Assembly: GCA_951406725.2 (NCBI GenBank)
Contig: OX597835.1
Span: forward strand, 15,562,001-15,626,000
Direction of reading: 5' to 3'
Source: Octopus vulgaris
Taxonomy: Eukaryota
DNA: 64,000 nucleotides
Shown here one piece after another: positions 11,643 through 60,904 of this stretch. The translations under genes and the position numbers were made by a program. A model generated the notes under the pieces. That model saw only the letters and a list, made by a program, of their open reading frames with translations. It was not told the DNA's origin and ran no database searches. Numbering within the stretch: position 1 is the first letter of the stretch; each line of letters begins with the position of its first letter.

Positions 11643-11863
11643 CCCTTTAGTGTTCACATTATTCTGCCAAAATTAATGCTTTTTTATCCACATTGTTTTG
11701 AATTAATCATGCATTATCTTGTAGCTATGAGATTTTGATGAGGTAGCTGTTCATTTTTAAAGCGATATTGTAGGGTTGGTGTGAGAGACCAGATCTGGCC
11801 AGTTTGAACATAAAACAGGCAGACTACTTTTGGCCGGATATGGCCTGTTTAAATGCTAGAGGG
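11643..11863. mobile_element. piggyBac-like MITE family C1
   Basis: TTAA at 11639-11642 and 11864-11867; termini CCCT...AGGG. Removing it restores the LINE frame K-M-L-K-I-S. Confidence 0.88.
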
Positions 11864-12879
11864 TTAAGCATCTTGGCGGTAATTCCTGATGGACCAGAGG
11901 TTTTCCCTGTCTTCATATTTTTAATTGATTTTTTTTTTTTTATCATACTGCTCTCAGCAAGGATAGCTGGTCCTTTTTTGGGGTCCACATTAGAAAGATT
12001 TCTTTTTTTATGTATTCTCTGTATTTAGTAGCACTTTCATGTCCCCTAAGTGCAAGTGTACCATCATCCATCTTGATACACTTCCCTCTTTCCAGAAGAT
12101 TTGGCAAACCTCTTCTTTTCTGCTACTCCTATGCTCCCAATCTTTCCAAGCCTGTTTATTTGCTTTTATATCTCTTCCTGCTTCATTGTTCCACCAATAT
12201 ATCATCCTTGGTCTGCAAGACTGTACTTACGTCTCTGAGTGTGTCATCATCATCATTTAAAGTTTGTTTTCTATGCTGGTATGGGTTGGACAGCTTAACA
12301 GGAGCTGGCAAGTCAGAGGACTGCACTAAGTTGCACTGTCTGTTTTGGCATGGCTTTTACAGATGGATGCCCTTCCTAGAACCAGCCACTTTTCAGATTG
12401 GATTGTGTGTTTTTCATGCGGCTTCAGTACTGGCGAGGTCTATTTCAGCATGGTTTTTATGGCCGGACACCTTCCAAATGCCAGTCATTTTACAGTGTGG
12501 ACTGGATGTTTTTTTTACATATCACCAGAACTGGTGAGGTCACCAACGAACTTGCAAGATGAAGATCTTTTGAGATGGGTGAAGTACTGGAGGAGGTGGT
12601 TTTGTGCCAAGTGATGAGAGTATGACAGAGTGACAAAAACAGTTGTCTTGCTGCAGAGGAGATACATGATTACCACAGTTGAAGAGAGAGAGAGGGGAGG
12701 AGGAGAGAGTGGAAGAGAACAAGAGTGAGAGATGGTGGCAGTGTGCCAGAGCATACTCTCAAGGTGTATGAGAGGAGAATATAAATTGGGTGGTAGGGCA
12801 TTGCTAAGAGTGCACGAGTAGGCATGTTTATGATCAGATGATGAATATTCTTTTGAGGGATTTCTTGCCAAGTTTCATA

Positions 12880-55504: not shown

Positions 55505-55553
55505 AGGTGGAGCCACTTCCCCTCCAATAGACCATGATGCTACAACTGCACAG
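55505..55553 (+). CDS. UBR4: UBR4 exon 37: RGGATSPPIDHDATTAQ
   Basis: ttttacag|...|gtaaga; 49 nt restores phase 2 to 0; poorly conserved linker. Confidence 0.83.
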
Positions 55554-56972
55554 GTAAGAAAAAATCAGATTAGAGCAGAGCTCAGTAAACTAAATGTCAT
55601 TGACTCCATCAAGGAATCATTTGATAACCTATACACCTCCATCAACCCAGAAAGGATGGAAGGCACAGTAGACCTAGGCAGAATTTGAGCTCAGCGTAAA
55701 GATGAACAGAATGCTACTAAGCATTTTACCTGGCATGCTAATAATTCTGCCAGCTCACCACCTTCATTTCTGAAATAATATTCATCATCATCATCATCAT
55801 TGTTTAACATCCGTTTTCCATGCTAGCATGGGTTGGATGGTTTGACTAGGGACTGCCAAGCTAGAAGGCTGCACCAGGCTCCAATTTGATCTGGCAAGGT
55901 TTCTACAGCTGGATGCCTTTCCTAACGCCAACCACTCCAAGAGTGTAGTGGGGGCTTTTTACGTGCCACTGGAATGGGAAGCCAGTCAGTATAATTAATA
56001 AAAAAATATTTTGATCTAAAAACAATAATTCCTTTATCCTTTTGTGTTGTTACTGTTTTTTTTAATAAGGAATATTTAAAGAAATTTAATGGAAACAATC
56101 AATAAAATTGAGAAAGAGCAATAAACATTCATATTGATACAGTCAGAATATATAATGTGAAGGCGCATGGTTAGAGCATCAAGCTCACTATCATGAGGTA
56201 GTGAGTTCGATTCCCAGAGTGTATGTTGTGTTCTTGAGCAAGATACTTTATTTCACATTACTCCAGTTCACTCAGCTGTAGAAATGAACTGCAACGTCAC
56301 TGGTGCCAAGCTGTATCGGCCTTTGTCTTTCCCTTGGATAACATCAGTGACACGGAGAGGGGAGGGTGGTATGCATGGGCAACTGCCGGTCTTCCTTAAA
56401 CAACCTTGCTTGGGTTTGTTCCTTGGAGGGGAACTTTCTAGATGCGATTAGATTGGAGCCTGGTGCAACCATCTGGTTCGCCAGACCTTAGTCAAATCGT
56501 CCAACCCATGGAAAGCAGATGTTAAACGATGGTCATTCACGACCAAAGGAGGTCTTTATCCTATATAATGTGAAATATCTGTTTAGTGAATATTAGTTAT
56601 TGCATTGATATTTGGTTTGAAATTAGCAAGTTTTATCCTTCAACTACTGCACTCTTCCAGATGCAGTTTGCTAATATTTCAATGTCCTGAATCTCTAAAT
56701 CACTTCAGGCATTTATTGGATCCCCACTGCACCCTGGAGATCAATATCAATCACTTTGCTGACAGCTGTATTAAGCCTAACAAAATGAATTGTGTTATTA
56801 AAACAGTGGTTGCGATGAATGTTCTTTTTGTTTCCTCATTAAATTGTTCTTATGCAAAGATCTTTTTTCTTTTCTTTCCCCAAAACTATTTTAATGTTTC
56901 TAAAAATTTTTTTTAAAATCAAGCATCAAACATATCTTCATGTTGTTTACTTTTTTTTATAATTCTTTATAG

Positions 56973-57038
56973 GATTTGGATAGTGATTGGGCTGATGAAA
57001 TGGGTGGAGATGATGAAGATTCTGCTGCCGAGGATTCG
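56973..57038 (+). CDS. UBR4: UBR4 exon 38: DLDSDWADEMGGDDEDSAAEDS
   Basis: ctttatag|...|gtatgt; DSDW...EDSxAEDS conserved. Confidence 0.94.
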
Positions 57039-58618
57039 GTATGTATTTAATTTTACTCATCTGAGCACAACCTGTTTAAAAATTAATTTACTGTTTGATT
57101 TTTGGACAGATATTACTTACAAATTCATTACTTGTGAAAAATAGAAAAAAAAAAAAACGCAAAAATAATTAGGAGTATCATATCAATTTTTAATTTCAGT
57201 TTTAGGGATCCAAATAAAATTTCTTAAAGCTTGAGTCTAAAAATTGTATGATATAAATTTAAGTGATAAATATTTAAAAACTATAGTAAGCTTCTTGTTT
57301 CAGTGTCTTTTTGAAACCTTTGTGGAAAATTTCTTTTTCAAACCAACATTTCAGAAGTCAGTCAATTTCTGTGCAGTTCTGTTATGCTTCTCATGGTCAT
57401 ACATAATCATCATTATCATCCTCATCATCTTCATCATTTGAAGTCCACTTTCCATACAGAGGAAGGTTGGATGGTTTGACAATATCCTGTGGGTTTGAGG
57501 GGCTGCATTGTGCTTTAGTGTTTTCTTTGGTATAGATTCTTCAGCTGGGTTTCTTTGGGTGTCTTTTTTTTTGTTTTTGTTTTTGTGGCACCAGCACTTG
57601 TGAGGTCACCATGCAGCATGGTAGACTAAAATCCCTTTCAATTGAGTGGAACAGCTGTAAATGAGGAGGTGGTTTTATGCTAGGGGATGAGGAAAATGTA
57701 ACAGAAGGGGACCAGAATAGGACAGGTTTGTTGTAGAGAAGCTACATTATAGCAGAGAAGGTGGGAGAGTGATCAGGTTGGAGGTGGAAAGTGATAAAAT
57801 AGTGGTCATGAGAAGTCAAGGTGGACCCTTGAGATACAAGGTGAATAAATGTGAGTGGGGGGGAGTAGAGGCTGCAAGTGTATGGGAGAGTGAAAGATGG
57901 GGAATGGGTGAAGAGGTGATTAGTATGAAGAACAAGTGTTGAGTGGGGTGATAAGTAGGGGAGAGCAGGTGACTAGTGTAGAAATCAGCTAGGGGTGAAG
58001 GCTGGATGTAGTGGTGGTGGGGAGGTAGGTAAGGGGGAGGAGATGACTGACAGTGCAGAAAAGGTGGGGGTAGTGAGTAGCAGAATAATAGGGAAATGGT
58101 AAGAGCATATGAGAGAAAGAAAGAGATAGACAGAGAGAGAAAGATGATGATGAGGTGTGATTGGGTAGGTTGCAAGTGTGTAGGTAGGTGGGAGAGACGA
58201 GTAGAGTAAATATGGTCTTGTATATTGGCATTGTTGTCGTTTCTGTTGTTTTACTGGGTTTCCATACTAGAATGGATTTTAACCGTTAGGTTTGCTCTGC
58301 TATGAGTCCCCACTTTTCTTAGTTGGTTCTTCATCATCATTTTTGTGAGACCCAAATTCTTGGCATCCATTCTCGCATCATTTCTTCTCATACCTTTCAT
58401 GGTTTTTTTTTTTTCCACTGCTGCAAGTACTTTCCACTGTTGGGAATTGGCACATTTTCACCAAGATGCATCCTGCATCCAAATGAAAATGTCCAAATCA
58501 GAAGAATCTCCTCTCTCTTAGATACATTGAGCCGATGCTTTTCATGGCTGCTCTTCTCTTAGCATATTTTTTTTGCTCTGCCTTTTTATTATTTTTTGTT
58601 TGTTTGTTTTACATTTAG

Positions 58619-58654
58619 CCTGAAGAGGACGAACAATATCAATTACCACTGCAG
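58619..58654 (+). CDS. UBR4: Candidate alternative 36-nt cassette exon of UBR4: PEEDEQYQLPLQ
   Basis: Long U-rich tract, ttttacatttag acceptor and CAG|gtactc donor; phase 0-0 and stop-free. It is not needed for colinearity with recalled human sequence, and there is no transcript evidence. Confidence 0.55.
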
Positions 58655-59418
58655 GTACTCAATGTTAAATTCTAGTTCAGTTTTATGAAATTGTTAAATA
58701 CTTAACATTGTGTGCTATGTTGGTGACTAGATGTCTTCTTAACTGCATGACATAACCTGTTACTTAACAATTTGACGCCATGTTATTTCTGAACAGCTTA
58801 GCATTATCTAGTTCATTTCCCGTGTGATATGATATGTTATGTTTTTGGAAGCATGACATGTCGAGTTAACTGTCTCAAAAATAGCCTTACCAAGTTTGTC
58901 TCTCGCCTTTGATTTAGCTTCTACAGTCAGAGCCCAAGTCTCACTTAAACATGCAGCAACACAGCTCTCGCGTTTTTGTTTGTTCGGTCTACCTTTCTCT
59001 CGCAGGAAGGTGACAGTTGTGTTAGTCCACACCTTTCTAACTAAACTACATTTTCAGCTTCAGCATTAATTTGTTAAGTAAAAATGGGAAAAAAAAAAAA
59101 AAAGAAAAAAAAAAAGACCCCTCTTACTACCACCACTACTACTACTATTACTACCGGTGTTATTGCTTTGTTACCAGTCTTTGTTACTCAGATCTATTAC
59201 CATAATTGCTTTGTTACCAGTGTTATCCTGCTTTGTTATCTAAGTTTTTACTTAGAAATGAAACAATTTTTGTTGTTTTTTTTTATACAAACTATTGTAC
59301 ACAAAGCATTGAAAATTAAAATCGCACACACACACACATACACACCCACAGAATTCATATTTACATTGATTTCCTTCATATTTTCATCCATTTAATCTTC
59401 TTAATTTATTTGTTCCAG

Positions 59419-59489
59419 GATGAAGAATCCCTGAATAATAAACTATGTACATTTACAATAACTCAAAAAGAATTCATGAACCAACATTG
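59419..59489 (+). CDS. UBR4: UBR4 exon 39, start of UBR box: [23 protein letters not shown]
   Basis: gttccag|...|gtaggt; [17 protein letters not shown] matches recalled human UBR4. Confidence 0.97.
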
Positions 59490-59984
59490 GTAGGTATTGT
59501 TAAACTATCTTTTATTTTTTTTTTTTTTTACTTGTTTCAGTTATTAGACTGTGACCATTCTGGGGCACTACTTTGGAGAATTTTTAGTCAAATGAATTGA
59601 TCCCAGAACATTTTATTTTCTTCTTTAACCCTTTAGTGTTTAAACTGGCCATACCAGGCCAAAATTATCTTCCTGTTATATGCTCAATCTAGCCAGCTCT
59701 GACCTCTCACACCTATCCAACAAAGTCATTCTAAAAATAAACAGGGACATCATCAAAATCTCAGAGTTACAAGATGCTGTACAATTAATTTAAAACAATG
59801 TGATTAAACAGACTTTACATTTGACAGAGTAATCTGAATGCTAAAGGGTTAAGCCAAGTACTTATTCTATCAGTCTTTTTTTGTTGTGTAGATGTTTCTG
59901 TATGAATATAATGCTTGGATAAAATATATTTTAGGCAATGCTGTTTGGTTGGGAAACTAAAACTATTTCATTTTTGTTCTCCAG

Positions 59985-60132
59985 GTATCACTGCCATACA
60001 TGTAAAATGGAAGATGGGGTTGGTGTATGCACCATTTGTGCCAAAGTTTGCCATAAAGACCATGACTTGTCCTACGCCAAATTTGGCTCCTTTTTCTGTG
60101 ATTGTGGAGCCAAAGAAGATAGTAGTTGTCTG
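59985..60132 (+). CDS. UBR4: UBR4 exon 40, UBR-box zinc finger: [50 protein letters not shown]
   Basis: ctccag|...|gtaatt; diagnostic UBR-type Cys/His pattern ending in FFCDCG. Confidence 0.98.
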
Positions 60133-60746: not shown

Positions 60747-60904
60747 CAGGCATGGGCATCCTCTTTTTTTTTTGTTTGTGAAGCGGGCCACATTAGCCAT
60801 AGTTCATCAACTAGCAGGCCACACTACTAATAAAAAATTCAAGGTAATATTTTGTTAGGTGTGCTCCTCAGAAAGTCTCACAGGCTGTAAGTTGCCCGTG
60901 ACTG
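60747..60904. mobile_element. hAT-type MITE with 8-bp TSD
   Basis: TSD ATCTAGAT at 60739-60746 and 60905-60912; TIRs CAGGCATGGGCA / TGCCCGTGACTG. Confidence 0.82.

What the first reader, a model, noticed from the sequence alone, without database searches (positions are those of the whole stretch)
58619..58654. Candidate 36-nt cassette exon inserting 12 aa directly before the UBR box
Seen: the phase-0 intron between ...AAEDS (57038) and [10 protein letters not shown] (59419) contains a U-rich tract of about 50 nt and a TAG acceptor. These are followed by 36 stop-free nt (CCT GAA GAG GAC GAA CAA TAT CAA TTA CCA CTG CAG = PEEDEQYQLPLQ) and a CAG|GT donor. The peptide begins acidic like its flanks, and the exon has purine-rich GAAGAGGACGAA enhancer-like sequence. 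Known: in recalled human UBR4, AEDS and DEDSL are contiguous, and the UBR box is the N-degron-binding module. Inference: an optional, possibly tissue-specific exon could alter the linker next to the substrate-recognition domain.
Basis: partly seen in the sequence, partly recalled or inferred. Interest (0 to 1): 0.75.

Follow-up and report, generated by a model that had tools for sequence, protein, structure and literature searches.

The report
Optional 12-residue exon in octopus UBR4
Octopus cells splice a 36-base exon into or out of the mRNA for the protein-disposal enzyme UBR4, adding 12 residues to an acidic linker just ahead of its UBR box; the exon is real and already in public gene models, and it likely only fine-tunes that linker.

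Summary
The exon is real and alternatively spliced. Window 58619-58654 has TAG/GT ends, phase 0, and encodes PEEDEQYQLPLQ in Octopus UBR4. Of 5 RNA-like runs laid, one has a 12.4-kb contig that includes exactly these 36 nt, three skip them (57038-59419), and one has no UBR4 contig. It is already annotated: 6 of 9 listed O. sinensis RefSeq isoforms and one O. bimaculoides model carry it. Among 263 assessable homologues, only Octopus has it. Both splice sites are weak (8th and 14th percentile in this gene), and 5 other intronic segments score as well, so sequence alone was not decisive. The insert lies between two Pfam domains, 7 residues before the crystallised UBR-box fragment. It splits a conserved S|D-E-[DE]-S motif. 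Tissue specificity could not be tested. Three papers report the human UBR box dispensable for the substrates they tested, which weakens the substrate-recognition reading. Verdict: an ordinary, annotated, probably Octopus-restricted cassette exon whose function is untested.

The parts
56973..57038 (+). Upstream UBR4 exon (66 nt, DLDSD...AAEDS, residues 1617-1638 of XP_036368078.1); ends in the conserved Ser
   Evidence: joints
57039..58618 (+). Upstream intron (1580 nt, phase 0), GT...TAG
58565..58618 (+). U-rich polypyrimidine tract with UG/UUGU repeats and TAG acceptor; AG-free zone 54 nt; acceptor at the 14th percentile of the gene; nearest TGC 40 nt upstream of the exon
58619..58654 (+). 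36-nt cassette exon, PEEDEQYQLPLQ (residues 1639-1650 of O. sinensis isoform X2)
   Evidence: included in the X2 contig, skipped in X9, X13, X14; in RefSeq isoforms
58655..59418 (+). Downstream intron (764 nt); weak donor CAG|GTACTC (8th percentile)
   Evidence: GT..AG joint skipping 764 nt in X2
58744..58749 (+). TGCATG hexamer 90 nt downstream of the exon (RBFOX-type motif, name recalled); a second GCATG at 58851
   Evidence: 11 of 123 other donors also have a TGCATG within 300 nt, so a weak lead
59419..59489 (+). Downstream exon ([12 protein letters not shown]...), start of the UBR box
59985..60132 (+). Second UBR-box exon (YHCHTC...), matching human UBR4 1677-1725

Best explanation
58619-58654 is a genuine in-frame cassette exon of Octopus UBR4 that is included in some transcripts and skipped in others; it likely arose in the Octopus lineage and is likely switched between tissues or cell types. 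SHOWN: both splice forms exist, the frame is kept, and the 12 residues fall between the N-terminal scaffold (Pfam E3_UBR4_N, ends 1637) and the zinc-binding UBR box (zf-UBR, starts 1661), so the UBR box sequence is untouched. INFERRED: the weak donor and acceptor make skipping the default, and a splicing activator in some cells promotes inclusion (an RBFOX- or CELF-type protein is a guess from one TGCATG and the UG-rich tract). Inclusion would lengthen the acidic tether of the flexibly attached UBR/DOC1/KCMF1 module by 12 residues. It would also change the context of the conserved Ser from S-D-E-E (CK2-like, consensus recalled) to S-P-E-E. The most likely result is a modest change in reach or phosphoregulation, not a new activity.
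For: Inclusion contig in X2 and skip joints in X9, X13, X14, which are 4 runs from 4 studies and 2 organisms. Six of 9 listed O. sinensis RefSeq isoforms include it and 3 skip it. O. bimaculoides XP_052831626.1 carries 12 of 12 identical residues. Intron-derived stretches of that model match the window at only 71 of 87 residues, against 325 of 326 in true coding linkers, so 12 of 12 has p of about 0.09 under neutrality, which is suggestive only. DNA-like runs of organisms C and D cover the exon; in C at most 1 substitution and no indel can lie in it. Splice sites are weak. Position. The Ser sits 10 residues before the first zinc Cys in 106 of 140 distinct sequences, and S-acid-acid-acid in 96 of 140. 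The UBR box is flexibly attached in cryo-EM (PMC12286842).
Against: Inclusion was seen in only 1 of 5 runs, and as an assembled contig, so there is no read count or PSI. Tissue is unknown. The conservation test is weak (p about 0.09) and the relatives are close. Restriction to Octopus rests on gene models and assembled contigs, which drop minor isoforms: Argonauta (1 model) and the 88%-identical Logan cluster (4 long members) show only the skip form. The AlphaFold model gives the linker no structure, but its UBR box is also low-confidence (mean pLDDT 58, pTM 0.27), so it does not show disorder. Phosphorylation of the equivalent human Ser is recalled; a paper search found nothing on it.
Confidence: 0.72

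Rival explanations
1. A tolerated, functionally near-neutral young exon: real splicing, kept because 12 in-frame residues in a linker do no harm, with no regulated role.
For: Found only in Octopus among 263 assessable homologues. Weak sites, with 5 equally good pseudo-exons in the gene. UBR box dispensable in three human studies. Conservation not significant.
Against: In X2 the inclusion form is the path that the 12.4-kb contig takes, which suggests it is the majority form in that sample (inference from how assemblers treat bubbles). It is identical in O. bimaculoides, and it interrupts a fixed-spacing conserved motif.
Confidence: 0.2
2. A member of the neural microexon programme driven by Srrm234/eMIC, as in flies and vertebrates.
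For: Short, 3n, weak acceptor and donor, AG-free zone of 54 nt. These match features of fly eMIC exons (bioRxiv 10.1101/2021.02.24.432780). Alternative splicing is highest in octopus neural tissue (PMC9699675). The gene also has a 15-nt cassette exon.
Against: No UGC in -20..-4 of the acceptor (nearest at -40). The AG-free zone is only at the 64th percentile. 36 nt exceeds the strict 3-27 nt definition (recalled). No neural bias could be shown.
Confidence: 0.2
3. An artefact: cryptic splicing noise, a gene-model error or a chimeric contig.
For: The O. bimaculoides model that carries it is faulty just upstream, with intron-derived residues. All 6 listed O. vulgaris GenBank models lack it.
Against: An RNA contig includes exactly these 36 nt between the correct neighbours, with a GT..AG joint. 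Annotation of two species gives the same 12 residues.
Confidence: 0.03

Closest known systems
O. sinensis RefSeq UBR4 isoforms X2, X4, X5, X8, X9, X11 (XP_036368078, -080, -081, -084, -085, -086) versus X7, X10, X12
   Same: The same 12 residues at the same place; the window's exons match isoform X2 residues 38-1800.
   Different: Nothing in sequence. These are predicted models, and my searches found no paper on the exon's tissue pattern or function.
O. bimaculoides XP_052831626.1
   Same: 12 of 12 identical residues, spliced to DEESLNNK.
   Different: Its upstream neighbour is mis-modelled from intron sequence.
Human UBR4/p600 (SIFI complex; PDB 8J9Q, 8J9R, 9D9Z, 9QWS)
   Same: UBR box strongly conserved. 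The junction maps to S1652|D1653, 7 residues before the 1660-1729 crystal construct.
   Different: No insertion at this junction in any vertebrate sequence retrieved. The human UBR4 splicing passage I read concerns ARM and WD40 regions (PMC12397408).
Neural microexons (SRRM3/4, Srrm234 eMIC programme)
   Same: Short, frame-preserving, weak splice sites.
   Different: 36 nt, no proximal UGC, neural bias untested, not found outside Octopus.

Membership tests
Cassette (skipped) exon | Canonical AG and GT boundaries inside an intron of a spliced gene | tested here: met
Cassette (skipped) exon | Inclusion and skipping both found in transcripts | tested here: met
   X2 includes; X9, X13, X14 skip; RefSeq isoforms of both kinds
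Cassette (skipped) exon | Reading frame kept, no stop | tested here: met
   36 nt, phase 0-0
Neural microexon (SRRM3/4, eMIC) | Length 3-27 nt (definition recalled; looser ones go to 51 nt) | tested here: not met
   36 nt
Neural microexon (SRRM3/4, eMIC) | Weak 3' splice site | tested here: met
   14th percentile among 123 acceptors
Neural microexon (SRRM3/4, eMIC) | UGC close to the 3' splice site | tested here: not met
   none in -20..-4; nearest at -40; feature taken
Neural microexon (SRRM3/4, eMIC) | Long AG exclusion zone | tested here: inconclusive
   54 nt against a median of 44, 64th percentile
Neural microexon (SRRM3/4, eMIC) | Neuron-specific inclusion dependent on Srrm234/eMIC | not testable with these tools
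   run labels coded, contigs only
RBFOX-activated exon | UGCAUG in the downstream intron | tested here: inconclusive
   one at +90; 11 of 123 other donors have one within 300 nt
RBFOX-activated exon | Inclusion depends on RBFOX binding | not testable with these tools
   needs a minigene or knockdown
UBR box (Pfam zf-UBR, PF02207) | Inserted residues lie within the zinc-binding domain | tested here: not met
   exon 1640-1651, zf-UBR 1661-1719 in P0322
Transposon-derived (exonised) exon | Exon or flanks have other copies in the genome | tested here: not met
   one match each for 58540-58720 and 58655-59080; the search skips very common words and old copies could be missed
Exon born by local duplication | Similarity to a neighbouring exon | tested here: not met
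   best ungapped 16 of 36 and 14 of 36 nt

The most novel reading that the evidence does not exclude
An Octopus-born, neuron-enriched switch exon makes a nervous-system form of the UBR4/SIFI ligase. It splits the S|DE[DE]S acidic motif, which other animals hold at fixed spacing from the first zinc ligand, turns a CK2-like serine into an S-P site, and lengthens the tether of the UBR/DOC1/KCMF1 substrate module. It would thereby change which N-degron or mitochondrial-precursor substrates neurons clear, and give a natural handle on the still-unknown role of the UBR4 UBR box.
Probability: 0.13. Interest if true: 0.6.

Novelty: already known. Interest (0 to 1): 0.27.

Why it matters
As it stands it matters little: one more short alternative exon, already in RefSeq, in a gene with at least two other cassette exons. 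It would matter if inclusion proved neuron-specific and changed activity. The in-vivo role of the UBR4 UBR box is open (PMC12286842 says so), and a natural 12-residue tether variant that also rewrites a conserved Ser motif would be a ready-made probe. It would also be a concrete case of lineage-specific splicing in cephalopod proteostasis. A practical point: the 6 O. vulgaris GenBank models I saw lack this exon.

Tried and rejected
No listed holder was on record as RNA; the runs are 'RNA?' by guess, and I treat them as spliced RNA only because their contigs join exons at GT..AG. I laid 5 of the 17 RNA-like holders and 2 of the 3 DNA-like ones. X3 had no UBR4 exon contig, so it is uninformative. 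The search of 50%-identity representatives (best 150 of 1684 listed) gave no further carrier of the peptide; representatives hide isoforms, so this says little. The AlphaFold model of the 158-residue inclusion fragment was too poor to use, so I ran no fold search and no skip-form model. Paper searches UBR4+microexon (7 listed), octopus+microexon+alternative splicing (2), UBR4+octopus (2), octopus/microexons/Srrm234 (12) and UBR4+alternative exon+isoform+neuron (9) showed no paper on this exon at listing level. The search for UBR4 S1652/S1647 was empty of relevant hits. PMC9699675 has no 'UBR4' in its main text; the supplement search found none but covered only 24,410 characters and left out file 2. 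Supplements of the 20-species splicing preprint (10.64898/2026.09.05.749416, which includes O. bimaculoides) are closed and may hold this exon's tissue PSI. Transposon origin and local exon duplication found no support. Earlier scan notes: none near this place.

Full report
Gene and place. The window holds the first third of a UBR4 gene on the + strand. The exon at 59986-60132 finds UBR4 proteins with the UBR-box Pfam family, and exact matches map O. sinensis isoform X2 (XP_036368078.1) residues 38-1800 onto the window. With 160 kb of adjoining genome, 124 of 125 introns were resolved to the protein's end. The animal is an Octopus of the vulgaris/sinensis group, by near-100% protein identity.

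Observation. Sequence alone would not prove an exon. Against weight matrices from the gene's other 123 donors and 123 acceptors, the donor scores at the 8th and the acceptor at the 14th percentile. In 141.6 kb of intron, 8 other AG..GT segments of 9-60 nt (3n) score as well at both ends, and 5 of them are stop-free.

Transcript evidence. The run search listed 24 runs, none on record as RNA. I laid 5 of the 17 RNA-like holders. X2 (organism A, study P2) has a 12,429-nt contig at depth 116.4 with GT..AG joints 55553-56973, 58654-59419 and 59489-59985. In one search that record holds 56971-57037 at positions 11819-11885 and 59416-59492 at 11708-11784. The 34 letters between equal the short side of the joint, and the bin depth fits (44.5 = 116.4 x 34/89), so the contig includes exactly 58619-58654. 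The upstream joint has no row of its own; the tool masks the repeat at 58582-58614. X9 (A, P4), X13 (B, P6) and X14 (B, P7) carry the skip joint of 2380 nt. X3 has no UBR4 exon contig. Contigs show presence only, so there is no PSI, and the skip runs may also hold minor inclusion. Tissues are not given.

Annotation. Of 20 proteins in the Octopus cluster, 15 were listed. Six of 9 O. sinensis RefSeq isoforms include PEEDEQYQLPLQ and 3 skip it. All 6 O. vulgaris GenBank models (one identical to isoform X10) and the Argonauta hians model skip it. O. bimaculoides XP_052831626.1 includes it unchanged, though its upstream neighbour is built from intron sequence. So the exon is already in public models.

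Spread and constraint. Of 516 proteins held, 263 could be read at this junction. Eight have extra residues: the six O. sinensis isoforms, and two other molluscs with a single Q. The O. bimaculoides model fell outside that count because of its faulty upstream part. Four long members of an unnamed Logan cluster at 88% identity skip the exon. Models and contigs lose minor isoforms, so restriction to Octopus is likely, not shown. As a neutral control, intron-derived stretches of the O. bimaculoides model match the window at 71 of 87 residues, and coding linkers match at 325 of 326. Twelve of 12 then has p of about 0.09 under neutrality: it favours coding constraint about tenfold but is not significant. 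DNA-like contigs of organisms C and D span the exon. For C, 8 of 9 substitutions and all 4 gap letters are listed outside it; for D too many rows were hidden to say. The exon and its downstream intron are single-copy in the searches run, and the exon is unlike its neighbours.

Position in the protein. In isoform X9 the Pfam N-terminal family ends at 1637, the exon is 1640-1651, and zf-UBR starts at 1661. Window 59986 aligns to human residue 1677. Counting back gives S1652|D1653, which agrees with E1670 and F1671 in PMC10687169 and lies 7 residues before that paper's 1660-1729 construct (passages). The junction is not free-running sequence: 106 of 140 distinct long homologues have Ser exactly 10 residues before the first zinc Cys, and 96 of 140 have S-acid-acid-acid. 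Inclusion moves that Ser 12 residues away and puts Pro after it. That S-D-E-E is CK2-like and S-P proline-directed is recalled textbook consensus. That the human Ser is phosphorylated is recalled and was not found in a search. The AlphaFold model was too weak to show disorder.

Mechanism. Shown: two in-frame splice forms, with an intact UBR box in both. Inferred: weak sites make skipping the default and an activator drives inclusion in some cells. One TGCATG at +90 (background 11 of 123) and a UG-rich tract are the only leads, and the UGC signature of eMIC exons (passages) is missing. Cryo-EM places the UBR box in a flexibly attached module with DOC1 and the KCMF1 N-terminus (PMC12286842, passages; bioRxiv 10.1101/2024.12.18.629163, passages), so a longer tether would most simply shift that module's reach. 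Against a large effect, the UBR box was dispensable for all substrates tested in those two papers and in bioRxiv 10.64898/2026.09.15.751905 (passages). Octopus alternative splicing is highest in neural tissue but otherwise typical of invertebrates (PMC9699675, passages), which makes a neural bias plausible and unsurprising. I also read passages of PMC12397408, PMC13721120 and bioRxiv 10.64898/2026.09.05.749416; none mention this exon in the passages seen.

Verdict. Observation confirmed, interpretation partly supported. This is a real, annotated, probably Octopus-restricted cassette exon with an untested role. Interest 0.27. The bolder reading, a neuron-specific UBR4 form with an altered substrate module, has a probability of about 0.13.

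Noticed in passing
G000:C22:15635442-15635456 (L002): 15-nt in-frame cassette microexon (VINMM, strong GTAAGT donor) further down UBR4, at residue 1942 of isoform X2; present in some O. sinensis isoforms, absent from the 6 O. vulgaris models, Argonauta and the Logan cluster. A better strict-microexon candidate than the finding itself.
   Followed up: partly
G000:C22:15698670-15698735 (L009): 66-nt (22-residue) cassette exon at residue 3777, variable among O. sinensis and O. vulgaris isoforms.
   Followed up: partly
G000:C22:15727687 (L012) and 15740598 (L013): Two 18-nt isoform differences (YDSVSR, ICFEFQ) are alternative 3' splice-site extensions, not cassette exons; there is also a 1-residue and an 18-residue acceptor shift near window 26578.
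   Followed up: partly
window 60784-60843: 60-nt stop-free phase-0 segment with splice-site scores above the finding's, in the intron right after the UBR box; in none of the 15 listed Octopus-cluster models and outside the stretches laid with reads. Probably a pseudo-exon.
   Followed up: no
window 58628-59075: RNA-like runs X2, X9, X13 and X14 all hold low-depth contigs of the single-copy intron just downstream of the exon. This may be slow splicing or retention next to the cassette; the X13 contig starts inside the exon, as a popped inclusion branch would leave it.
   Followed up: no
window 55554-56770: O. bimaculoides RefSeq model XP_052831626.1 replaces the true exon 56973-57038 with intron-derived sequence matching this region, a gene-model error.
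   Followed up: yes
window 55564-56547, 58024-58187, 59500-59991: High-copy repeats: thousands of unrelated contigs pile on these intronic stretches.
   Followed up: no
proteins P0123 and P0252: Batillaria and Dreissena models add a single Gln at the same junction, likely a tandem (NAGNAG) acceptor, so this junction varies independently in other molluscs.
   Followed up: no
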